A DNA stretch of 24,000 nt from Candidatus Nomurabacteria bacterium (GTDB lineage Bacteria > Patescibacteriota > Minisyncoccia > Phycocordibacterales > UBA9973): contig JADZCK010000015.1 of the NCBI GenBank assembly GCA_020851595.1, positions 1,047 to 25,046 on the forward strand. Direction: 5' to 3'. Positions 4,326 to 23,700 of the stretch are shown here, piece by piece. Numbering within the stretch: the stretch's first letter is position 1; the number at the start of each line of letters is the position of its first letter. Made by a program: the position numbers and the translations under genes. The notes under the pieces are model-generated. The model worked only from the letters and a program-made list of their open reading frames with translations. It did no database searches and was not told where the DNA came from.

Positions 4326-4406
4326 CAAAAACACTTAATTTGTATTTACATTGACAAACGCTGAAAAAGATCTATTCTTATCAGAATGATGTTCTTTTAG
4401 AGAAAA

Positions 4407-4490: not shown

Positions 4491-4949
4491 GTGGAACGAT
4501 ACAAGGAAGAAGAGGAAGAAGAGATAATCTTAAAAACTCTGTGCTCTGGTATCATCGGCCCGACCGATGGAAGTCTAATAATAAAACAGACATCGTGGGT
4601 GGTGGATAAATATCTTGAAAATCTTAAAGAGTCCACACCCACGGAAAAAACCGATGTAAGAATCGATACGAATGGAGGAGTACCTGCAACAATCTCTCTC
4701 ATATTCGGAGCCTATGAAAAAGATTTTCGTCAGATATGTCTGACACAGTCTCAGATTGTAGAACTGTGTATAGAGAAACCTTCGTTTATCATAAAAAACC
4801 TTCCTATTTTTACGGTGCTCCCCACAAAACAGAATGACTTTTCTGTGGTAAGCTTTACAATGAGTGCGGGTGGGGTATGGTTTTTCCGCTCAATATATTG
4901 GTGGTCATTTGAAGTGTTTCGCGATATCCACCTGTTGGTAAAGGCATAA
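4491..4949 (+). CDS. Hypothetical protein (152 aa, GTG start)
   Basis: Track ORF. AAAGGA lies 7-8 nt upstream of the GTG, and an intrinsic terminator follows. No family recognised. Confidence 0.5.
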   Translation: MERYKEEEEEEIILKTLCSGIIGPTDGSLIIKQTSWVVDKYLENLKESTPTEKTDVRIDTNGGVPATISLIFGAYEKDFRQICLTQSQIVELCIEKPSFIIKNLPIFTVLPTKQNDFSVVSFTMSAGGVWFFRSIYWWSFEVFRDIHLLVKA

Positions 4950-8060: not shown

Positions 8061-8131
8061 TGCGGCCAGAGAGAATCGAACTCTCGTCTCATCCTTGGCA
8101 AGGACGTGTTCTACCACTAAACCATGACCGC
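8061..8131 (-). tRNA. tRNA-Gly (anticodon GCC)
   Basis: Manual cloverleaf: GCGGUCA acceptor, GUUU/GAAC D stem, CGUCC-UUGCCAA-GGAUG anticodon arm, GAGAG-UUCGAUU-CUCUC T arm, discriminator A. No encoded CCA. Confidence 0.9.
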
Positions 8132-8186
8132 GTTATTAAATTTTAATAAACTACATTGACTTATAATGGCCTTATTGACACGATAA

Positions 8187-8209
8187 ACCACTAAACCATG
8201 ACCGCGTTA
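8187..8209 (-). repeat. Duplicated 5' fragment of tRNA-Gly(GCC)
   Basis: The 23 nt accactaaaccatgaccgcgtta are identical to 8113-8135, which is the first 19 nt of the tRNA plus 4 nt of upstream flank. The two copies are 51 nt apart. Confidence 0.85.
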
Positions 8210-8333
8210 GTTAATATTAATTTTCTAACCGTTCAATTATAATATTTTATTTAATATAATGCAATTTATAATTTAATCCTTAAAAAACAATCATATTTTG
8301 ATAACAAGATAAAATAATGTATAATTTATAAAT

Positions 8334-11604: not shown

Positions 11605-12357
11605 TTAAATCTGGCTCCAGAGAAATTCGTAAATATATTTATGCATTCTGTATATAATGGGATCTTCAATAATAACTCCAATCATTTTATTTGGCGATAA
11701 TGTAATATATGATATTTTATCATCATAGATCTGCATAATGCTTTCAAAAGATAGCGCATCTTGCTTCATAAATTTATTTTCTGTTATTTCTGAATGATAA
11801 TCTGTTAGAAGCTGCCTTGCCTCTGGCGTATCAATAAAAATTCCTTTTTTCTTTAATTTTAATTTTTCTCTTTTTGCAACATATTCTTTATTTATTTCAG
11901 GTATATATTTAAAAATTGCTTCAATATCAGAATACGCGTATATTTCAGTTTTTGAAGTCAACGTATCTGCCAATACTTTTTTAATTCCATCTTCCCCCTC
12001 AAAGAACTGAACATTGGGCTTACCAAGAATTAAATTATATTTTGAAGATAAAGATCCTATAGAACTTAGTAATATTTCTTTGTTCAACGCTATTTCTTTT
12101 TCTTTTCTTTCTATATTTGAAAGTAGCAGGCTCGGATGAGCAGGGGAGAATGTAGCCACAGTACCAATTCCTCCATTTTTAGACACCAAACCCATAGATT
12201 CCAGCTGTTCTAAGACTTTATAAATAAGCCCTCGTTTTATACCAGTCCATTTGGACAAGTCGCTAGCCCTTTGAGGCCCTTTATCTAGCAGAGCTTGATA
12301 GACGAGTGACTGTTCTTCTGATAAACCTGCTTGCATTAAAATATTTTCTTCTTGCAT
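11605..12357 (-). CDS. TrmB-family transcriptional regulator
   Basis: 250-aa ORF. The N-terminal winged HTH is LSEEQSLVYQALLDKGPQRASDLSKWTGIKRGLIYKVLEQLESMGLVS. It is divergent from the island promoter. Confidence 0.8.
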   Translation of the reverse strand: MQEENILMQAGLSEEQSLVYQALLDKGPQRASDLSKWTGIKRGLIYKVLEQLESMGLVSKNGGIGTVATFSPAHPSLLLSNIERKEKEIALNKEILLSSIGSLSSKYNLILGKPNVQFFEGEDGIKKVLADTLTSKTEIYAYSDIEAIFKYIPEINKEYVAKREKLKLKKKGIFIDTPEARQLLTDYHSEITENKFMKQDALSFESIMQIYDDKISYITLSPNKMIGVIIEDPIIYRMHKYIYEFLWSQI

Positions 12358-12468
12358 ACATAAAGCATATCATATTTGTTTTTGTCACACAAATATGACA
12401 AGGTAAATAACAAAATGTATTGTAAATAAAGGATATTTTACTATTTACAGAATCATATTTATGTTACA

Positions 12469-12497
12469 TTGACATTTTAATTTAATTATGCTATAGT
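12469..12497 (+). promoter_or_regulatory. Strong sigma70-type promoter of the GC-rich operon
   Basis: TTGACA (12469-12474), a 17-nt spacer ending in TG-c, then TATAGT (12492-12497). It is followed by a ~135-nt structured leader and the SD AAGGAGG (12626-12632). Confidence 0.7.
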
Positions 12498-12638
12498 ATC
12501 TGCAGAGTTAATAAGTTCATTGATAGCTAGCAAGTTAATTTTTTCCGAAGATTTTGTGGGTGGTATTGTGGATATGAGATATTTCGTATCTAAAATACCG
12601 TCTGCAAATGCAACGGAAAAATAAAAAGGAGGAACGTC

Positions 12639-13055
12639 ATGAGTTATAAGCTCGTCGACGGTTCCCGGGGCAAGGCGCCCCGATTCGCGATCACGATGGG
12701 ATTGCAGGAGGGCTACGGCCCGACTGCAAAAAAACACCAGGTTGACGAGGTCGTCGACCTCGTCGAGGCATTTCTCAAGGCGGCCGCAGCCGCCGGGCGC
12801 CCGTACCTTACGGGATCCGTGACCACCGGAGTAGTGGTCTACGCTTGGCCGGAAGGACCCGGTCAGGCTGGCGGGGGGCACGAGCCCCAGGCCACGTACA
12901 GCGGGGAAGTGAACCCGTTGTACAACTCGGGGATGGCTGAGGGAGCCATCGTCGAGTTTCTTAACTCCCTCGCCTCGGTTCTAGGGTCTGCACTCGGGCA
13001 GACTCGGGTCTATGTCGTCTTCGCGGGCGACATGTGGATCCTCCAGGCCGAGTAG
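12639..13055 (+). CDS. Island ORF1, hypothetical protein (138 aa), GC-rich
   Basis: ATG lies 6 nt after AAGGAGG. Third codon positions are strongly G/C-biased. No family recognised. Confidence 0.7.
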   Translation: MSYKLVDGSRGKAPRFAITMGLQEGYGPTAKKHQVDEVVDLVEAFLKAAAAAGRPYLTGSVTTGVVVYAWPEGPGQAGGGHEPQATYSGEVNPLYNSGMAEGAIVEFLNSLASVLGSALGQTRVYVVFAGDMWILQAE

Positions 13056-13130
13056 TCCTCGGCCACACCGACAGGAGAGACGGTGTAATTTCTCTCCAAT
13101 CGAAAAAGGGGATAAGACTTTTCAAGTCAC

Positions 13131-13184
13131 GTCCTCTCCATTTTTCAGACCACAAAGAAATTTGCTGTCTGAATGGATGGAGTT
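13131..13184 (+). repeat. Element A, copy 1 (54-nt hairpin)
   Basis: 52/54 identical to 13961-14014. It folds as CUCCAU/AUGGAG + UUCAGAC/GUCUGAA + CAAA-GAAA-UUUG. Both differences fall in the apical tetraloop. Confidence 0.85.
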
Positions 13185-13211
13185 TGTTTCCTTGAAAAAT
13201 AAATAAACATC

Positions 13212-13265
13212 GTTTCCAGCGCAGAGTTTCTAAATTAATTTTTGGAAATTGTGTGCTGGAAACAG
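13212..13265 (+). repeat. Element B, copy 1 (54-nt hairpin)
   Basis: 52/54 identical to 14958-15011. It forms a ~20-bp stem gtttccagcgcagagtttct/ggaaattgtgtgctggaaac with three G-U pairs that work only on the + strand. Both differences are in the loop. Confidence 0.85.
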
Positions 13266-13317
13266 CAAAAAAAAGCAACACAAACCCACCTAGAAGGTGC
13301 GGGTTGAAGGAGAAAAC

Positions 13318-13860
13318 ATGAACGAAACTTTTTTTCTTGCGGTCATTTTGGCCATCGCAGTTTCTTTCCTTCTGAGGATCGTCCTCGGCGGGAAAAAAAC
13401 GATGGACATGCCGACCAAGTGGGCTCCGATCCCAAATCCTCCCGAAACCGAGGAGGAAAAAAAGAGAAAGGAGGTGAAAAAGCTCTTCGAGTTGGCGGAC
13501 GATATCGCCAACTACTTCGGGTGCGTGCTCTCAAGCAAGTTCTATGGTTCACCCTGGGGGTATGTTCATACCTCCAGGTACGAGGTCGTGGTGGGGGGCA
13601 ACAAGTTTGCCCTCTACCACAATATGGGGAAGAGAATCTGTCTTCTCGCAACCGGGGGAGAGGTTGAGCTCGGGGAGCAGGAGCTCCTCGACTCAGGGGT
13701 CATTGGACCCTTGGTCGAAGCCCTTGAAAAAGAGCTCGCGGTCCTCACGGAGGACCGTGACAAAGAAAGAAAAGAAGAAGAAAGAAGAGAAGAAAGAAAA
13801 AAAGAGGAAGAAGAAAGGAGAAGGGCGACTTGTGCCCTTCTCCGGAAAACTTTTTTATAG
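13318..13860 (+). CDS. Island ORF2, hypothetical membrane-anchored protein (180 aa) with KE-rich C-terminus
   Basis: ATG at 13318 lies 5 nt after GAAGGAG; the track's GTG at 13297 has no SD. It has an N-terminal TM helix FFLAVILAIAVSFLLRIVLGG and the C-terminal run DRDKERKEEERREERKKEEEERRR. Confidence 0.7.
   Translation: MNETFFLAVILAIAVSFLLRIVLGGKKTMDMPTKWAPIPNPPETEEEKKRKEVKKLFELADDIANYFGCVLSSKFYGSPWGYVHTSRYEVVVGGNKFALYHNMGKRICLLATGGEVELGEQELLDSGVIGPLVEALEKELAVLTEDRDKERKEEERREERKKEEEERRRATCALLRKTFL
13817..13856 (+). terminator. Terminator-like hairpin embedded in the last codons of ORF2
   Basis: 10-bp stem ggagaagggc/gcccttctcc (13817-13826/13834-13843), then ggaaaac and T6 (13851-13856). 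The stop codon is at 13858. Confidence 0.5.
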
Positions 13861-13960
13861 ACAAAACTTCTCTTGCGTGCCGTGACCACGCAGGTTTCAA
13901 TTATCTAGTTGATGTTACGGATCAACTCACAACGAGAGGATAAAAAGCTTTCATGCCTAA

Positions 13961-14014
13961 GTCCTCTCCATTTTTCAGACCACAAAATAATTTGCTGTCT
14001 GAATGGATGGAGTT
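13961..14014 (+). repeat. Element A, copy 2
   Basis: See copy 1. Here the apical loop is AUAA instead of GAAA, and all stems are retained. Confidence 0.85.
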
Positions 14015-14024
14015 CTTTAAAAAA

Positions 14025-14077
14025 GTTGATTCTGGGAATTTGTACATAAAATTTGCGTGCATATTCCCGGAATCAAC
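14025..14077 (+). promoter_or_regulatory. Element C: 15-bp hairpin preceding ORF3
   Basis: gttgattctgggaat / attcccggaatcaac, with one U-G pair that is valid only on the + strand, and a 23-nt loop. It occupies the same slot as element B in the other spacers. Confidence 0.7.
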
Positions 14078-14161
14078 AAGATAGAAAGGAGAGAAATTAA
14101 CTGCGTTTTTGTTTGGAACTCAGGAGCTTGAGGGAAGAACATTTACGCAAAAAAAGAAAAA

Positions 14162-14692
14162 ATGAAAAAAGTTTTTTCTTTTGACGCAGAGACCAACGGT
14201 CTCTGGGGCCAGGCTTTTGCCATCGGCGCGCTCGTCTATGACGAGAATGGCGTCGAGATAGCTCGATTCGTCGGACGGCTTCCCGAAACGGAAGTCAAAG
14301 ACGAATGGGTGAGGGCGAATGTCCTGCCTCAGTTGACCGCAGTCCCGGTCACCCACACGGATTACGCATCCTTGTTGGCCGACTTTGCTAAGTTCTACTT
14401 GGCAAATAAAGCTGACGCGGATATCGTAGTTCACATGGGAGTTCCTGTCGAGAGCAAACTGCTCATCGACATGCACTCCAGTGGGCTGATCGGCGACTGG
14501 GATGGTCCCTATCCGCTCTGCGACGTCGCGGGCAATCTCCAGCAGGCTGGGGAAGACCCGACGTCCGTAGACGGATACGTGCGCAAGCACGGGCTCGAAG
14601 TGCCGGAATTTGGTACGACGCACAATCCGCTGTATGACAGCGCGGTTGCCGCCGTAGCTTATCGGCATCTCTTGAGCCGTCGGACCGTCTAA
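14162..14692 (+). CDS. Island ORF3, DEDDh-type (DnaQ-like) 3'-5' exonuclease (176 aa)
   Basis: Exo I motif FSFDAETNGL (D8, E10) and Exo III motif HNPLYDSAVAA (H-x4-D). It is small and single-domain. No SD is present, only an A-rich leader. Confidence 0.75.
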   Translation: MKKVFSFDAETNGLWGQAFAIGALVYDENGVEIARFVGRLPETEVKDEWVRANVLPQLTAVPVTHTDYASLLADFAKFYLANKADADIVVHMGVPVESKLLIDMHSSGLIGDWDGPYPLCDVAGNLQQAGEDPTSVDGYVRKHGLEVPEFGTTHNPLYDSAVAAVAYRHLLSRRTV

Positions 14693-14868
14693 CGGTCGAC
14701 GCGTCAATCACTGGACCAGCAGTAAACTGGGAAAGCTCTCGGTAGAGTTGTAATGGTGGATACTAGAGCAGAAATCTGCGGAAGCTACTCCGAGAAAGAC
14801 CGCCCACTAAGCTTTGCTTTTGTGCTTTGAACAAAAGTTAATCACGGGGCTTGTGCAAAACGAGCCCC

Positions 14869-14931
14869 AACCGTCCACAGATATGTGTCTGTGCTGATGA
14901 GTCCTACGTTTACACTCAGGACGAAACGGTT
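14869..14931 (+). ncRNA. Hammerhead self-cleaving ribozyme, type III
   Basis: AACCGUC|CACAGA-uaugug-UCUGUG-CUGAUGA-GUCCU-(12 nt)-AGGAC-GAA-ACGGUU. All invariant core nucleotides are present. Stems I and II are capped and stem III is open. Predicted cleavage is after C14875. Confidence 0.9.
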
Positions 14932-14957
14932 AAGTTCTTTAAAATAATAAATAAAAT

Positions 14958-15011
14958 GTTTCCAGCGCAGAGTTTCTAAATTTGTTTTTGGAAATTGTGT
15001 GCTGGAAACAG
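14958..15011 (+). repeat. Element B, copy 2
   Basis: See copy 1. It lies 26 nt downstream of the hammerhead and 53 nt upstream of the ORF4 SD. Confidence 0.85.
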
Positions 15012-15077
15012 TAGAAAGCCCGTAAATCCTGACTTTCTGTTTTTTACAGATAAGCAGGTGGGCAAAAGGGAGAAAAA

Positions 15078-15899
15078 ATGTTCAGGATCAGAGAAAAGTT
15101 TGTTTTTGACGAGTCAAGATGTCCCGCTCTTTACGAGTGGAAGTACCCCCACTCGTTCCTTGCCGGCACAATCGCCGGCTGGTCCATCTTCTATCTGAAG
15201 ACCGGGAGGAATGCGGGGAATCGAGCGTTGATTGCTCGGTCCCCTGAAGGACTTTGGGGCTGGGCCCCGAAGCTCCACGATAACGTCCTCCTTGCCCTCG
15301 GAGAGGAGCTGGAGAGTGTAAAAGGAACCCTCCGCCTTCTGGCCAATTGCCAGGAGGCAGAGAAGCTCTGGGACATCAAAGATGTCCCGGGGTTCTCCAG
15401 CACCGATTCTGATTCATTGACGTATCACCATGATAAGTGGTATACGTCATCGTTGGTGGCGGCACCGTTGCCGCCACCGTCCTGGGCACCTGATGCCCAG
15501 GCTTGGTCCATCCGCGAGGGCGTATACATCGCCTTCCCGGATGATTCGTTCCGACTCGCGCGTGGACGCGAGTATCACGGGTTCCCCTTTGAGGGGAAAC
15601 CGGTCGCCCGACAGGGTGACTGCCTGATCTTCAGCCAACCTGAGGGGTGGGAGGCTCCGGTCAACCCTCTCACCAAAAAGTTTGATCGGTGGCAGGACAT
15701 GCTGGTGTATGACGGCGAGTTCACACTCGACCGCCACCACTTCGAGCCCGTAGAGGGCACTCAGGAATGGGTTTTGACCCATCCTGAACACAAAACTCTA
15801 AGAGTCCAGGCTCCAGAGCCTGGGCTTGGCACTACGTTCTGGGCAGCCCTTGTGCCTGGAACGTCGCGACCTTTCGGCAGTGGAGAGAATCTGGATTAA
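15078..15899 (+). CDS. Island ORF4, hypothetical protein (273 aa), GC-rich
   Basis: ATG lies 5 nt after AAGGGAG. The first codons are AT-rich and the rest is GC-rich. No family recognised. Confidence 0.7.
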   Translation: MFRIREKFVFDESRCPALYEWKYPHSFLAGTIAGWSIFYLKTGRNAGNRALIARSPEGLWGWAPKLHDNVLLALGEELESVKGTLRLLANCQEAEKLWDIKDVPGFSSTDSDSLTYHHDKWYTSSLVAAPLPPPSWAPDAQAWSIREGVYIAFPDDSFRLARGREYHGFPFEGKPVARQGDCLIFSQPEGWEAPVNPLTKKFDRWQDMLVYDGEFTLDRHHFEPVEGTQEWVLTHPEHKTLRVQAPEPGLGTTFWAALVPGTSRPFGSGENLD

Positions 15900-15933
15900 A
15901 AACCAGAGATTCTTCACAAAAGGTTGAATCCAA

Positions 15934-15977
15934 TACCCCTCCGACCTAGGTCGGAGGGGTATTTTTGTTTCTTTTTT
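15934..15977 (+). terminator. Strong intrinsic terminator closing the island operon
   Basis: 12-bp stem tacccctccgac/gtcggaggggta around a ctag loop, followed by tttttgtttctttttt. Confidence 0.9.
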
Positions 15978-16005
15978 CATGTTTTTGTGCTATCATATGT
16001 GATAT

Positions 16006-16146
16006 ATGAAAAGTATTTTGCAGTTTTCAATTTCAAAAGGTGAGAAAAATTATATAGCCCAAGCGGTAGACTTTCCTATTTTTACTAAATCATCTATTTA
16101 TATTTCTGAAAAAGAATTAAAGGAATATTTCTATACTGAAAATTAA
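16006..16146 (+). CDS. Possible small ORF (46 aa), faint HicB-antitoxin-like N-terminal pattern
   Basis: MKSILQFSISKGEKNYIAQAVDFPIFTKSSIYISEKELKEYFYTEN. It has no clear SD and may be a gene remnant or non-coding. Confidence 0.25.
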   Translation: MKSILQFSISKGEKNYIAQAVDFPIFTKSSIYISEKELKEYFYTEN

Positions 16147-16159
16147 ATAAGCTTCTTTT

Positions 16160-17275
16160 TTAGTCTGCCCAAGAACGGTCAGCTCCGGGATTTTTGGCAC
16201 CATAAACTTCAAAGTGTAAGTGTGCACCGTTGCCACCTTTTGCAGCTCTGACGCGCCCGCTGTTCCCGACGTATCCTATCACTTCACCTTGAGAAACACT
16301 GGCTCCTGTAGATGTGGCTAGTTTAAACAAATGGCTATATAAAGTCTTTGTGCCATTTGGATGTTGAATAATAATCATATTTCCATAGGCTCCATTCCAA
16401 CCCATACGAGCGAGTAACACTGTACCGGATGCAGCAGCGTAAATAGGAGTACCAATAGGCGCAGCGAGATCTACGGCATTTTTACCGTGTAAACCTTGCG
16501 TCTTAATATATCCAGGAACTGGGTTTATAAAATACCCAGCAATATTTTTAAGAGAAGTTTTTGGATAATAATTTTTTGGTTTTGAAGTAGAACTAGTGTT
16601 TTCAGATGGACCGTCTACAGATATCTCGCCATCAGGGATGATGAGCTCGTCACCAACAGCAAGTGTTGCGTTTTCTGCCAAATCATTAAAATCAGCAATA
16701 TCTGTTATGTCCGCGTTGTATTTTTGAGCAATGCTTTTTAGAGTCTGGCCTTTAGTTACAATGTGTTTTACCCCAGAAACAGGCAAAATAATCAAAACCT
16801 GCCCTTCTTTTAAGGCATCTCCCTTTTTTATATCGTTCGCCCAAAGGATAGTGTTTACCGATACATCAAACATGTTTGCTATACCAGAAAATGAATCTCC
16901 TTTCCGTACAACATATACACTAATCTGATCGTAAGAAGAATCGGAATTTTTGGAAGTACCATCAGAAACTCCCAGGGGGCCGACAGAAGAAGAAAGAGCG
17001 CTATCCGCAACCACTTTGTCTGTATTATCATCTTTAACATCTATATCTTTATTCTTTTCATCTTTCTTTTCTAAAACTGACGCAGAAGAAACATTTGCCT
17101 GTAAAAGGGAAATGTTTTGAGAATTTGTCCCTGCTCTAGGAACCGCAGAGGTACTTGTATCAGTTTCTGCCTCTGCATGAGCCTGATCTCCTGTTCCAAA
17201 AAGAGAAGAAAGAAAACCAGCCTGCACCGAATGGGCGGGAACCAAAAGAGTCCCAAACAACAAGAAAAAGGACAA
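16160..17275 (-). CDS. Secreted LysM-domain M23 family metallopeptidase
   Basis: Two LysM repeats (YVVRKGDSFSGIANMF...ILP and HIVTKGQTLKSIAQKY...IIP) and a C-terminal M23 core (...GKNAVDLAAPIGTPIYAAASGTV...GYVGNSG...GAHLHFEV). The TTG start is uncertain: the frame stays open upstream and encodes KLKFKILRS, which would complete a signal-peptide n-region. Confidence 0.88.
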   Translation of the reverse strand: MSFFLLFGTLLVPAHSVQAGFLSSLFGTGDQAHAEAETDTSTSAVPRAGTNSQNISLLQANVSSASVLEKKDEKNKDIDVKDDNTDKVVADSALSSSVGPLGVSDGTSKNSDSSYDQISVYVVRKGDSFSGIANMFDVSVNTILWANDIKKGDALKEGQVLIILPVSGVKHIVTKGQTLKSIAQKYNADITDIADFNDLAENATLAVGDELIIPDGEISVDGPSENTSSTSKPKNYYPKTSLKNIAGYFINPVPGYIKTQGLHGKNAVDLAAPIGTPIYAAASGTVLLARMGWNGAYGNMIIIQHPNGTKTLYSHLFKLATSTGASVSQGEVIGYVGNSGRVRAAKGGNGAHLHFEVYGAKNPGADRSWAD

Positions 17276-20763: not shown

Positions 20764-23700
20764 ATGACAATGGATCAACCACCAAAAAACGGAGAAGAAA
20801 TAAAAAACGAAAAAATTCTTTTAGAAATTGAAGAAACCTTGAAAATTATTGAGAAAGCGAAAGAAGAAGCTATTTGGCAATTGTCGCAAAGACAAGCAAT
20901 AATAAACCCTAATGACGAGGAAAGAATGGCAATAGCTGATTTTAAAGAACAAATAGAATTTTTTGAAAGAGAAAAAAGAAATCTAGAAAGAAGAAAAGCT
21001 GAAATTTTAAATACACAAAACGAAAGCCCCACACCAGAACCTGAAAAGCAACCACAAGAAGCAGAAAACCCCGAAGATGTTTTTGGGTTAGGGGAAGAAA
21101 CACCCGCTAATTTACAACCTGAATTAGAGATAGAACCTGAGTCTACTACTAAAATTTTACCAACAGAGACACCACAAGCTGTTGGAGAACAAACCCAACC
21201 AGAGCAAGAAAAACAACAAGAAAAAACAGAAGAATTAAAAGGTGAGATAAAAACATTTGTAGAAGAATTAAAACTAGAAGCCCTTTTGCCAAAAGAATTT
21301 AATAAGTTAACCGAAGCTCAACAAACAAAAGTAATACAAGATTTAAAACGTAGAATTGTCGACATTGTAAAATCAGATGCACAGACTCAGTATGCAGAAA
21401 AATTAAAAGATAGAGCTCTGTGGAATTCTGGAATACTAAAAATATTTGAATTTGTAGAAAAAGCACAAAATGCTTTATACAAAAAAGAAAAAGATTTACA
21501 AAATACAGAAAATGAAATTTTTACGAGATTTATAAAACAAAACAGAACAACTAATGAACTAATAAAACAAGATTTAGAAATACTAACAGCTAGAACAAAA
21601 GGAAGAGATGTGGTAGTAGAAAACGGAAAAGCTTATTTTAACTATTTTACAGGTAGCTCTGTGCTAATGGCAGGAGAACCAAATGTGCATAATTTTAACG
21701 AGAAAACTCATGGTTTTGTAAATATGCCTTATGAATGGGGACAAGAAAAGAGTGGTAAAAATAAAAAAACTTATGATAATGCAAAAAGAGAATACGAAGA
21801 AACGAGGAAAATAATACTAAAACAGGAAAATATAACACCAAAAGAAAAAGCAAGATTAACACAAAAAATGCTAGAAACAGACAACCTTGTAAAAATGGAA
21901 CAACTTTTGAATACTCATCCTGAGTTTGAAAAAGCTTTAAAAGATTTTGGAGAAAGTGCAAAAGGGCTAGAATTAATTAAAACTGGTAAAAAATTCTTGA
22001 AATCAATAACATTAGAACGAGAAAAACTTATGACTGCCAAAACAAAAACCAGATGGAGCACCAAAGCTGCAGCAATGTTTGTGGGTGGTACGATAGGAAC
22101 CACTATTACAGCTATAGCAGCGCCTGCTATCGGTGGAGTGGTTGGTTATTATAGAGGCAGAATGCGCGCAAAAGAAACTCTTACAGAAAGACAAATAAAA
22201 GCAAGACATGGAGAAAAAGACGAGAGCGAAGAAGCGACAAACACAGAAGACGTAGAAAAATTAAACAAAAGAATGGAAGGTATTTTGGAAGCTTTCGAAA
22301 AAGCTGGCACAGAAGAAGAAAAAGCAAAAAAACTTGATCAAATCAAAAGAAGAATAGAATATACCCAAAATAAAATAGAATCTAAACTTGTAAATTTTGG
22401 AGATTCTAAAAATGCGTTAAATAATCAATTTAATTTGGTAAACAATTTAAATAAAGCTTTGATAATTGCAGCTAGCTTAGAACAAACAACACGAAAAGAT
22501 ATAGATGCTAGACTAAAACAATTTCTTTCTTATAAAACAAAAAATATAAATGAGGTCCAAACTGTGTTTATTAAAAAGCAAGCAAGAAATAGCGCTCTGT
22601 TTGGGGCTGGATTTGCAACTGCTGGTTATATTGCGCGTTGGGCCGGAGAACATTTCGGCTGGTGGGAACGCACTGATAAAATAAAAACAGAAACACCAAA
22701 AATCACAAAAGAAGTAAAGCCAGAATTAGAGAAGACTGATAACTCTATAAAGCAAGAGATAATCCCTTCAAAAACACCAACGCCAAAACTCACACAGACT
22801 CCAAACCCAACAAATACACCAGAAATAAAGACCGTAGAAAAAATAAAACCTGAAGTACCCATAGAAAAAGAAATAGTAGCTCCGGTAGGAAAAGTAGCTG
22901 AAGTTTTTAAAGAGGAAAGTATTACTTTTAATAAAGGAAGTGGTGGTATTCAAGGAATAATTGACTTGAGGAGCCAAATAAAAAATCACTATAAAGGAGA
23001 TTATTCTGGTGCGCCACAAAGCGTACAGGAATTTATGAAAGAAAAGAATGTGATGAACTTGGCGAAAAAGCTTGGGTTCTTTGATCCTGATAGAAGAGAC
23101 GGAAAAGAGAGTGCTCTTATACAAGAAGGGTCGGTATTAAAATTTGACGAGAAGGGTAATCTTTTATTTGGAAAACCAGATGCGAATGGTAATGTTCCGG
23201 TATTAGAGAAATATCACGGAAAAATGTTTGATTCAGATCATAACGCAACAGCAAGTGAAAACACAGAAATAGCAGAACAAAATAATACAAAAACACATAC
23301 AATTGGATTAAAAGAAGAAACCTTCCCAACAAAAGAAGGACATCTAAACCCAGGAACAGCAGAAAATATATACGCTCCAAAAAAACATTCATTGGGAACA
23401 GGGGAAGAAAAATCATTTTTTGCTGATAAAATTGAAAAAATAAAAAATTTAAAAGAACAAATAGAAGCAAACATAGACGCAGAACGAACGGAAGGGTTGT
23501 CAGTTGATGAAAACTTAACTCCGACCGACAATTCAATTAATGAAACTTATAATAATACTATAAATAGCATTTTTCGAGAAAGCAAAAATGGAAACTGGGC
23601 GACAATAAGAGATGTGGGAACAAACCACTTTCTTCATAGTAATAATTATAATGAAGAAAATTATATAAATCTTAAAAATTATATAAATAAACTAATAGAA

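What the first reader, a model, noticed from the sequence alone, without database searches (positions are those of the whole stretch)
14011..14944. The hammerhead occupies the same modular slot as element A (shared AGUUCUUUAAAA junction)
The 12 nt immediately 3' of element A copy 2 (agttctttaaaa, 14011-14022) are identical to the 12 nt starting 2 nt after the hammerhead (14933-14944). Copy 1 of A has the related agtttgtttccttgaaaaa. Every spacer therefore reads the same way: a 3' module (A, A or hammerhead), then an AU-rich linker, then a 5' hairpin (B, C or B), then the translation start. This interchangeability suggests that A and the ribozyme perform equivalent jobs, namely generating or marking a transcript boundary. 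It raises the possibility that A directs cleavage by another route.
Basis: inference. Interest (0 to 1): 0.65.

Follow-up and report, generated by a model that had tools for sequence, protein, structure and literature searches.

The report
Hammerhead and hairpin precede boxA leader
The 12 bases shared by the two junctions exactly match boxA, the RNA signal that loads anti-termination (Nus) factors onto RNA polymerase. A self-cleaving hammerhead ribozyme or a plain hairpin can sit just in front of it at the start of each gene cassette in a small operon of an ultra-small (Patescibacteria) bacterium.

Summary
AGTTCTTTAAAA occurs exactly twice, at 14011-14022 and 14933-14944, against 0.04 expected. 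One copy abuts element A copy 2 and the other lies 2 nt after a type III hammerhead.

The 12-mer does not belong to A or to the ribozyme. Its core GTTCTTTAAAA matches the published boxA consensus GYTCTTTAANA perfectly and equals a tested Legionella boxA.

In related Patescibacteria loci and an unbiased metagenome sample, the same motif lies 0-6 nt after hammerheads: 4-5 of 13, and 6 of 87 against 0-1 for control words. It also follows terminator-like hairpins and sigma-70 promoters, usually ahead of a long hairpin, ribosome-binding site and ATG.

The "slot" is therefore real. It is whatever lies just upstream of the boxA that opens a cassette's leader.

The hammerhead is well supported: intact core, and 14 of 16 pairs covary. 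It lies at the 5' edge of a cassette absent from a sister genome.

Element A is a lineage-specific long hairpin with a U-rich tail. Nothing suggests it cleaves.

Function in this phylum is untested. The hammerhead-boxA pairing appears undescribed.

The parts
12469..12497 (+). Sigma-70-type promoter of the island (TTGACA-17-TATAGT with TG). It is the only strong promoter match in 12300-16200.
   Evidence: The region is conserved at 88% in the sister locus L058.
12515..12525 (+). Degenerate boxA-like word GTTCATTGATA, about 18 nt after the -10 box.
   Evidence: Read. L058 has AGTTCATTGTAAAA at the same place. This is an inference.
12639..13055 (+). orf1 (138 aa), GC-rich cassette gene of unknown function.
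13108..13184 (+). Element A copy 1. It has a short stem P1 (GGGGAU/GUCCUC) and a long hairpin (13136-13182) closed by a GAAA tetraloop, followed by UUUGUUUCC.
   Evidence: (D7).
13186..13198 (+). Degenerate boxA-like stretch GTTTCCTTGAAAA. Aligned without a gap, its core differs from GYTCTTT at two positions.
13212..13264 (+). Hairpin B copy 1.
   Evidence: (D2).
13318..13860 (+). orf2 (180 aa from ATG 13318, with GGAG 8 nt upstream). It has an N-terminal hydrophobic helix.
13934..14014 (+). Element A copy 2. It has P1 (GAGGAU/GUCCUC) and a long hairpin with an AUAA loop.
14011..14022 (+). Shared 12-mer AGTTCTTTAAAA. The core 14012-22 (GTTCTTTAAAA) is a perfect match to the boxA consensus GYTCTTTAANA. 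It is single-stranded in the centroid fold.
14025..14077 (+). Hairpin C. It is optional: a clean indel of about 55 nt spanning it is absent from L058. A homologue follows a hammerhead plus boxA in L025.
14162..14692 (+). orf3 (176 aa), with a DEDDh 3'-5' exonuclease fold.
14846..14868 (+). GC-rich hairpin abutting the hammerhead. It would form the 3' end of the upstream cleavage product.
14869..14931 (+). Type III hammerhead ribozyme. Stem III is 14869-74/14926-31, stem I is 14876-93, the core CUGAUGA is 14894-900, and stem II is 14901-22. Predicted cleavage is after C14875.
14933..14944 (+). Shared 12-mer AGTTCTTTAAAA, second copy. The boxA core is 14934-44. It is unpaired in the fold.
14958..15009 (+). 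Hairpin B copy 2.
   Evidence: (D2).
15078..15899 (+). orf4 (273 aa), function unknown.
14845..15917 (+). Cassette present in the window but absent from sister locus L058. It comprises the GC hairpin, hammerhead, boxA, hairpin B, leader, orf4 and a short tail.
15932..15973 (+). Strong intrinsic terminator closing the operon (14-bp stem, 8 GC pairs, T-run).
   Evidence: It is orthologous to the terminator after orf3 in L058.

Best explanation
The island 12469-15973 is most likely one operon of four exchangeable gene cassettes in a Patescibacteria chromosome. Each cassette leader opens with a boxA-type RNA element: GUUCUUUAAAA, exact in spacers 2 and 3 and degenerate after the promoter and in spacer 1. 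A long hairpin, a ribosome-binding site and the start codon usually follow.

By analogy with rRNA operons, lambda nut sites, suhB and CRISPR leaders, boxA on the nascent RNA would recruit NusB/NusE (S10) and the other Nus factors. This would keep RNA polymerase processive through the 260-385-nt untranslated, structured spacers. This step is inferred.

The position immediately 5' of boxA holds a boundary element for the upstream cistron. In spacer 3 it is a GC hairpin plus a type III hammerhead that cuts after C14875. Cleavage would release orf3 mRNA ending in a hairpin. The ribozyme, boxA and orf4 would stay on the still-growing transcript, so a cis-linked boxA is present again after the cut (inferred). 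In spacers 1 and 2 it is element A, a stable hairpin with a U-rich tail. A most likely acts as a leaky terminator or 3'-end protector, or as an rrn-style boxB-like hairpin. It is probably not a catalyst.

The 12-nt identity therefore reflects selection on boxA, not kinship between A and the ribozyme.
For: Shown:
- The exact 12-mer occurs twice against 0.04 expected.
- GTTCTTTAAAA fits GYTCTTTAANA, the consensus of Baniulyte et al. 2017 (PMC5725501). It is identical to the L. pneumophila Lens CRISPR boxA, which raised array transcription about 10-fold (PMC7862264).
- Extended boxA words are enriched 4-7-fold over dinucleotide shuffles on the gene strand of 57 related loci, for example GYTCTTTDAAA at 16 observed against 2.5 expected.
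- The Y position varies between orthologous sites: L004 GCTCTTTAACA against L280 GTTCTTTAACAA.
- The motif follows hammerheads within 0-4 nt in the window, L010, L025 and L015, with a near-match in L018.
- In an unbiased metagenome sample of this hammerhead subfamily, 6 of 87 have the motif starting within 6 nt of stem III, against 0-1 for eight same-composition control words. Long hairpins and an RBS follow it.
- It also lies 5-16 nt after sigma-70 -10 boxes (L021, L043-45, L034) and just after terminator-like hairpins (L004, L015, L025, L014).
- It is unpaired in centroid folds between two stable structures.
- There is one strong promoter and one strong terminator, and no promoter match in the spacers.
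- Across 13 hammerheads, 94.7% of cells are paired and 14 of 16 pairs show compensatory change. No shuffle of 500 reached the observed percentage paired or covariation score.
- The hammerhead cassette is an insertion relative to L058.

From the literature: rrn operons carry boxB-boxA-boxC in that order and a second set before 23S, and boxA is necessary and sufficient (PMC10250234).
Against: - No protein binding or RNA ends were measured.
- Presence of nusB, and use of the same motif in this organism's own rRNA leaders, were not checked. No rRNA is in the fetched DNA and a tblastn for NusB in about 0.5 Mb was uninformative.
- The bare 7-mer GYTCTTT is barely denser between genes than inside them (3.5e-4 against 2.9e-4 per nt). 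Near-matches are not enriched within this window.
- Other related arrays (L059-62) lack the motif entirely.
- Only about 7% of hammerheads of this subfamily are followed by it.
- A boxA placed after a terminator-like hairpin cannot help polymerase past that same hairpin.
- rrn-type complexes are known mainly to counter Rho, not intrinsic terminators (my recollection of the literature).
Confidence: 0.55

Rival explanations
1. The 12-mer is only the U-rich tail of transcription-stopping structures. On this view hairpin A plus UUCUUU is an intrinsic terminator, and the hammerhead's closing helix plus the same tail acts likewise. The identity would reflect terminator function, not a protein-binding site.
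For: The motif directly abuts the A hairpin, and its first G closes the stem. In L004, L015, L025 and L014 it lies just after canonical terminator-like hairpins. It is U-rich.
Against: The same word lies 5-16 nt after sigma-70 -10 boxes, where a terminator tail makes no sense. G1, C4 and the A-rich 3' half are conserved, and position 2 varies only between C and T, as in boxA. The simple terminator scan does not call A, whose loop is 16 nt in that scan's terms. No promoter is found downstream of A to restart transcription.
Confidence: 0.12
2. The identity is a by-product of recent duplication and recombination of spacer modules within this genome and has no function of its own.
For: A (96%) and B (84%) are clearly recent duplicates within the window. 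Cassettes and hairpin C come and go between close relatives.
Against: The sequences flanking the two 12-mers are unrelated on both sides: A against the hammerhead upstream, and C against the AU-rich linker plus B downstream. The motif recurs at the same place next to highly diverged hammerheads in other genomes and metagenomes.
Confidence: 0.1
3. The motif acts at the DNA level, as a recombination or insertion site for cassettes or as an operator for a regulator such as the adjacent TrmB-family protein.
For: It lies between exchangeable cassettes. The island is always next to a TrmB-family gene in the window, L058 and L059-62.
Against: The cassette and hairpin-C indel boundaries against L058 do not coincide with cassette-flanking copies of the motif. 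The motif is not palindromic in most variants. It is oriented with the downstream gene (16-18 on the gene strand against 6-8 on the other). It does not fit the integron core GTTRRRY; that consensus is recalled from memory and was compared by eye.
Confidence: 0.08
4. Element A is itself a cleavage element, either a new self-cleaving RNA or a dedicated RNase site, functionally replacing the hammerhead.
For: A occupies the same position as the hammerhead relative to boxA, and a homologous downstream module follows a hammerhead in L025. From my own recollection, new ribozyme classes have been found before by looking near hammerheads (Weinberg et al. 2015). I could not retrieve a paper to confirm this (searches failed).
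Against: A folds as a plain, nearly continuous hairpin. It has no conserved internal loops or junctions. Its three known copies differ in the core only in the tetraloop (GAAA, AUAA, GCAA), plus two one-sided changes that keep the flanking P1 stem paired. It matches no Rfam ribozyme at E<=10. No relatives were found in 56 genome loci, 120 metagenome loci or viral contigs, so no comparative support exists.
Confidence: 0.05

Closest known systems
boxA of Nus-factor antitermination sites (rrn leader and 16S-23S spacer, lambda nut, suhB 5' UTR, CRISPR-array leaders)
   Same: The 11-nt core GTTCTTTAAAA fits the consensus GYTCTTTAANA and equals the tested Legionella CRISPR boxA. It lies in a transcribed leader, is single-stranded, and occurs more than once per operon, as in rrn. 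It often has a hairpin just upstream, like the rrn order boxB-boxA.
   Different: Here it precedes ordinary protein-coding cassettes and is repeated at every inter-cistronic spacer. It is in some cases fused to a self-cleaving ribozyme. The host phylum has no experimental Nus biology. Binding and antitermination are untested.
Type III hammerhead ribozymes that flank single genes in prophage and mobile regions (Perreault et al. 2011, PMC3088659)
   Same: It has the same catalytic core and three-helix fold. It lies between variable genes on the coding strand, as in the described arrangements thought to cut long transcripts into gene-length mRNAs.
   Different: It scores below Rfam's gathering cut-off. 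It belongs to a subfamily with a 6-bp stem I closed by a UGYRUR loop and a 4-bp stem II with an NAAA loop. In a subset it is immediately followed by boxA, an association I did not find in the paper library.
Rho-independent (intrinsic) terminators and 3'-end stabilising stem-loops, as a comparison for element A
   Same: A is a stable hairpin (-20.7 kcal/mol) followed directly by a U-rich run (UUUGUUU or UUCUUU). It lies downstream of a stop codon.
   Different: The stem is long, AU-rich and irregular. It was not called by the consensus scan. No promoter follows it, so it cannot be an efficient terminator if orf2-orf4 are expressed from 12469.

Membership tests
Hammerhead ribozyme, type III | Conserved catalytic core (C3 U4 G5 A6 N7 G8 A9 ... 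G12 A13 A14), an A15.1-U16.1 pair, and a cleavage triplet NUH. | tested here: met
   CUGAUGA is at 14894-14900, GAA at 14923-25, A14926 pairs with U14874, and the triplet is GUC with C14875.
Hammerhead ribozyme, type III | Three helices around the core, with stems I and II closed by loops and stem III open, supported by covariation. | tested here: met
   Across 13 members, 94.7% of cells are paired and 14 of 16 pairs show changes on both sides. No shuffle of 500 reached the observed percentage paired or covariation score. Slid controls gave 32-53% paired.
Hammerhead ribozyme, type III | Score at or above the Rfam RF00008 gathering threshold. | tested here: not met
   41.4 bits against 48.5, at E 4.9e-7. 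None of the related hammerheads passed gathering either.
Hammerhead ribozyme, type III | Site-specific self-cleavage. | not testable with these tools
   This needs in vitro transcription or RNA-end mapping.
boxA (NusB/NusE-binding antitermination element) | Match to the boxA consensus GYTCTTTAANA. | tested here: met
   14012-14022 and 14934-14944 are perfect matches and are identical to a tested boxA.
boxA (NusB/NusE-binding antitermination element) | Lies on the transcribed strand, in a leader downstream of a promoter and upstream of the RNA it serves. | tested here: met
   It is on the same strand as the genes. The only strong promoter match is at 12469-97. Related loci show it 5-16 nt after -10 boxes. 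The gene-strand bias is 16-18 against 6-8.
boxA (NusB/NusE-binding antitermination element) | The same motif is used in the organism's own rRNA operon leader or spacer. | not tested
boxA (NusB/NusE-binding antitermination element) | The genome encodes NusB (NusE is ribosomal protein S10). | tested here: inconclusive
   A tblastn with E. coli NusB (sequence recalled from memory) against about 0.5 Mb of fetched Patescibacteria DNA found nothing. That sample is far too small to decide.
boxA (NusB/NusE-binding antitermination element) | Binds NusB-NusE and confers read-through of terminators. | not testable with these tools
   This needs binding and reporter assays.
Intrinsic terminator (element A) | GC-rich stem, short loop, and a run of U immediately 3'. 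| tested here: inconclusive
   A is a stable hairpin with UUUGUUU or UUCUUU directly after the stem. It was not reported by the consensus scan, which needs a loop of 3-8 and at least 3 GC pairs in a simple stem.
Known self-cleaving ribozyme classes (twister, twister-sister, pistol, hatchet, hairpin, HDV-like, among others) for element A | Match to the family covariance model. | tested here: not met
   No ribozyme family other than the hammerhead was found at E<=10 in 12900-15200.
Integron attC / cassette recombination site (for hairpins B and C and the 12-mer) | Imperfect inverted repeat bounded by RYYYAAC ... GTTRRRY, with an integron integrase nearby. | tested here: not met
   B and C begin GTT... 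and end ...AAC, the reverse order. GTTCTTT is GTTYYYY. These were compared by eye against the consensus as I recall it. The only integrase in the window is a Xer-like gene 10 kb away.

The most novel reading that the evidence does not exclude
Patescibacteria cassette islands may use a composite RNA module in which a self-cleaving hammerhead is fused to a boxA Nus-loading site. The ribozyme would sever the finished cistron, leaving it hairpin-capped. The boxA, retained on the nascent 3' fragment, would re-arm the antitermination complex for the next cassette. This would directly couple ribozyme processing to processive antitermination. Terminator-like hairpins such as A, or promoters, would be interchangeable alternatives in the same position.
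Probability: 0.3. Interest if true: 0.7.

Novelty: new variant of a known kind. Interest (0 to 1): 0.5.

Why it matters
Bacterial hammerheads have lacked a clear biological role beyond a general idea of transcript processing. Here a subset lies a fixed 0-6 nt upstream of a recognisable transcription-elongation signal, at the 5' edge of mobile gene cassettes.

If the motif works as boxA, three things follow. Nus-type antitermination would operate on ordinary mRNAs in an uncultivated phylum. There would be a mechanistic reason for where the ribozyme sits and which side it cuts. And "ribozyme + boxA + hairpin + RBS" would be a portable expression unit that lets foreign GC-rich genes work inside an AT-rich genome.

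The idea is directly testable with short RNAs and reporters. For annotation, it warns against reading the shared 12-mer as part of either flanking element.

Tried and rejected
1. Rfam at gathering found only tRNAs. At E<=10 only the hammerhead is credible; the hits to hairpins B and C were chance miRNA-like matches.
2. BLAST of the spacers against 56 genome loci and 120 metagenome loci found no copy of A or B outside this lineage. Only the boxA-plus-hairpin-C unit in L025 and hammerhead similarity turned up.
3. A viral-contig scan for A found 0 hits.
4. Viral-contig scans with a loose pattern of hammerhead core plus motif gave 71 hits, against 105 and 36 for control words. Most hits were not real hammerheads, so this test was uninformative and was dropped.
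5. The bare 7-mer GYTCTTT is not clearly enriched between genes, nor at one mismatch or fewer within the window. Only the extended motif and its position carry signal.
6. An integron attC reading of hairpins B and C and of the 12-mer was rejected by eye, because the motif orientation is wrong and no integron integrase is present.
7. orf1, orf2 and orf4 are not syntenic with orf3 in any of the 56 loci, so orthologous junctions could be compared only in L058.
8. Pfam, PHROGs, PADLOC and PDB sequence searches gave no function for the four proteins.
9. A NusB tblastn and a search for rRNA in the loci were both negative and uninformative.
10. Paper searches found no natural hammerhead-boxA link and nothing on hammerheads or Nus factors in Patescibacteria.
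11. Two attempts to read the pistol ribozyme paper failed.
Full report
**What the window is.** The window has about 34% G+C. It carries cellular genes: a Xer-like integrase, a methyltransferase, the CCA-adding enzyme, a ZIP transporter, a TrmB-family regulator, an M23/LysM peptidase and four tRNAs.

Between 12639 and 15899 lies an island of about 55% G+C with four same-strand ORFs. These are orf1 (12639-13055), orf2 (13318-13860), orf3 (14162-14692) and orf4 (15078-15899). They are separated by AT-rich spacers of 260-385 nt that fold far better than shuffled sequence, with z-scores of -6 to -8.7.

The only strong sigma-70 match is at 12469-12497 and the only strong terminator is at 15932-15963. 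No promoter match lies in the spacers. The island therefore reads as one operon.

orf3 homologues number more than 740, at 70-98% identity. The named ones are almost all Patescibacteria MAGs.

**Checking the observation.** AGTTCTTTAAAA is exact at 14011-14022 and 14933-14944 and nowhere else. That is 2 observed against 0.04 expected, and no shuffle of 100 gave 2. The repeats A (54 nt, 96%) and B (81 nt, 84%) are as described, and hairpin C is at 14025-14077.

The hammerhead at 14869-14931 has an intact core and a GUC cleavage triplet. Rfam scores it at 41.4 bits (E 4.9e-7), below the gathering score.

I built a covariance model from eight relatives. It finds 13-14 hammerheads in related loci, all on the gene strand. 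Their three helices covary strongly: 94.7% of cells are paired and 14 of 16 pairs show compensatory change. No shuffle of 500 reached the observed pairing or covariation score.

One correction is needed. The 12-mer overlaps the last four bases of the A repeat, and its G closes the A hairpin.

**What the 12-mer is.** The core GTTCTTTAAAA is a perfect match to GYTCTTTAANA. That is the boxA consensus Baniulyte et al. used to find Nus-factor targets (PMC5725501). It is letter-for-letter the boxA of the Legionella pneumophila Lens CRISPR array, which raised transcription through a repeat array about tenfold (PMC7862264). The variant GTTCTTTGAAAA, seen in related loci, begins the standard PCR primer used for mycoplasma detection (PMC3019172). 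From memory, that primer targets the 16S-23S spacer.

In rRNA operons the elements run boxB hairpin, boxA, boxC. A second set precedes 23S. BoxA alone is necessary and sufficient for the antitermination complex (PMC10250234).

**Does the motif recur where it should?** I fetched 56 loci with orf3 homologues from species-representative genomes, sister loci and 120 metagenome loci.

- Extended boxA words are enriched 4-7-fold over dinucleotide shuffles on the gene strand. GYTCTTTRWAA is 18 observed against 2.8 expected, and GYTCTTTDAAA is 16 against 2.5. The opposite strand has only 6-8.
- Variants include GCTCTTTAACA, the E. coli rrn form as I recall it. Orthologous sites differ only at the Y position (L004 against L280).
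- The bare 7-mer is not informative by itself.

Position is the stronger evidence.

- The motif starts 0-4 nt after hammerhead stem III in the window, L010, L025 and L015, with ATTCTTTG in L018.
- I drew a metagenome sample with a hammerhead-only pattern. Six of 87 distinct valid hammerheads have GYTCTTT starting within 6 nt of stem III. Eight control words of the same composition gave 0-1.
- In those six cases where enough sequence remains, a long hairpin usually follows, and an RBS and ATG are visible in some.
- The motif also lies 5-16 nt after clear -10 boxes (L021, L043-45, L034) and immediately after canonical terminator-like hairpins (L004, L015, L025, L014).
- In both window copies it is unpaired between two stable structures.

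- In L025, a hammerhead is followed by tAGTTCTTT and a homologue of the window's hairpin C (73% over 79 nt). In the window that unit follows A.
- In L010 one linker, GTTCTTTTAAAAAATAAATATT, follows a hammerhead at one spacer and a plain hairpin at another.

The slot is defined by the downstream boxA, not by a property shared by A and the ribozyme. Promoters occupy the same slot.

**Cassette structure.** L058 is a sister locus: orf3 is 98% identical, it has the same TrmB neighbour and the same promoter.

- It keeps A, the 12-mer and orf3.
- It lacks hairpin C, through a clean indel of about 55 nt.
- It lacks everything from the GC hairpin before the hammerhead to the end of orf4 (window 14845-15917). 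The flanks align on both sides.

The hammerhead is therefore the 5' edge of an inserted cassette. Upstream, L058 has different ORFs between conserved leader and trailer segments, which indicates cassette replacement. In none of the 56 loci do orf1, orf2 or orf4 accompany orf3.

Hammerheads flanking variable single genes have been described in prophage regions. They were proposed to cut long transcripts into gene-length mRNAs (PMC3088659).

**Element A.** A folds as a short stem plus a long, nearly continuous hairpin of -20.7 kcal/mol. The hairpin is capped by a tetraloop and followed by UUUGUUU or UUCUUU.

The three known copies (two in the window, one in L058) differ in the core only in the tetraloop: GAAA, AUAA and GCAA. 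Two one-sided changes in the short stem keep it paired.

A matches no ribozyme family at E<=10. No relatives turned up in any collection searched. Nothing therefore supports catalysis.

A looks like a leaky terminator or 3'-end protector, or an rrn-style boxB-like hairpin. Hammerheads of this subfamily also tend to have a stable hairpin abutting their 5' side. This holds for 43 of 83 against 20 of 83 control windows, with mean MFE -10.4 against -7.7 kcal/mol (p=0.003). Both kinds of boundary module would thus leave the upstream RNA hairpin-capped. That is the sense in which A and the ribozyme may do a similar job.

**Proposed mechanism.**

Shown:
- the sequence identities;
- the consensus match;
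- the recurrence and position of the motif;
- the hammerhead fold;
- the cassette indels.

Inferred:
- the motif binds NusB/S10 and keeps polymerase going through long untranslated spacers;
- the type III hammerhead cuts near its own 5' end, so boxA remains on the nascent RNA after cleavage and the complex keeps a cis-linked boxA;
- A attenuates transcription or stabilises the upstream mRNA.

Untested:
- whether this lineage has nusB or rho;
- whether its rRNA leaders use the same word;
- whether any RNA ends form at these sites.

Counter-points:
- related arrays in L059-62 have other modules and no boxA;
- only about 7% of such hammerheads carry the motif.

**Novelty and verdict.** The parts are known kinds: a hammerhead, a boxA and a hairpin. 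The library holds no natural hammerhead-boxA association and nothing on either element in Patescibacteria.

I rate the finding a new variant of a known kind, of moderate interest. The "same slot" reading is supported. The suggestion that A cleaves is unsupported.

Noticed in passing
window 12639-15899; L058 3500-5450; L059 3316-9250: A GC-rich (about 55%) four-gene island lies in a 34% GC genome, next to a divergently oriented TrmB-family gene. Sister genomes carry different numbers and kinds of cassettes at the same place, sometimes between conserved leader and trailer segments. The locus looks hypervariable and cassette-exchanging.
   Followed up: partly
window 14162-14692 (orf3): orf3 has no Pfam hit. 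It carries the DEDDh motifs (D8, E10, H154, D159 invariant) and a confident model (pLDDT 91.5). The model matches RNase T, ERI and Pol III epsilon exonucleases at TM 0.6-0.68. It has more than 740 homologues at 70-98% identity across many Patescibacteria, and the gene stays at about 55% GC even in 33% GC hosts.
   Followed up: partly
window 14025-14079 against L058 4598-4600: Hairpin C lies within a clean presence/absence difference of about 55 nt between sequences that are 95% identical. A 73% similar hairpin occurs in L025 in another gene's leader. It behaves like a small mobile palindromic module.
   Followed up: partly
L277 559-670; L278 1380-1490; L279 1008-1120: A conserved element of about 110 nt lies directly after the stop codon of orf3 homologues. 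It reads GUCGAAYUGCCAGCG...CCGGCGAAAUCGGGGAGG...GGCAACAGAA. Several stems show apparent compensatory changes, for example UGCCAAU/AUUGGCG, UGCUAGC/GCUAGCG and UGCCAGC/GCUGGCG. It has no Rfam match at E<=0.1. It may be an undescribed structured RNA.
   Followed up: partly
83 metagenome hammerheads (L281-L400) and window 14846-14868: Hammerheads of this subfamily tend to have a stable hairpin ending within 3 nt of their 5' side. This holds for 43 of 83 against 20 of 83 control windows.
   Followed up: yes
L015 4559-4613; L034 4571-4635: Two hammerhead matches carry CCGAUGA instead of CUGAUGA (U4 to C) in an otherwise good fold. They may be inactive or tolerated core variants.
   Followed up: no
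L041 1170-1250, 2356-2436, 5326-5406: An element of about 57 nt is repeated three times. It reads GGGAUUGCGGCGGGAGAGAUUGUUUGGCUAUCGCAUAGCCAAGYGAAAACUCCCGAGA. Each copy is directly followed by GTTCTTT (GTTCTTTAA in two, GTTCTTTGA in one). This is another lineage-specific module in the pre-boxA position.
   Followed up: no
window 4349-4402: A housekeeping-side leader also shows a promoter-like TTGACA...TATTCT followed 12 nt later by GTTCTTTTAGAG, about 100 nt upstream of ORF 4491-4949. The boxA-like word may not be restricted to the island.
   Followed up: no
window 8113-8147 and 8187-8221: A 35-nt direct repeat at 91% identity (D15). The first copy overlaps the 5' end of tRNA-Gly(gcc) on the minus strand. 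It may be a tRNA-fragment duplication left by an integration event.
   Followed up: no
L280 1963-2472: A gene two positions downstream of an orf3 homologue has a weak Pfam hit to Gad2, an anti-defence protein as I recall. This hints that some cassettes may have defence or counter-defence roles.
   Followed up: no
window 20940-20950 (-): A third exact GTTCTTTAAAA lies antisense inside the Lys/Glu-rich 1015-aa ORF. The context is low-complexity and the match is probably chance.
   Followed up: yes
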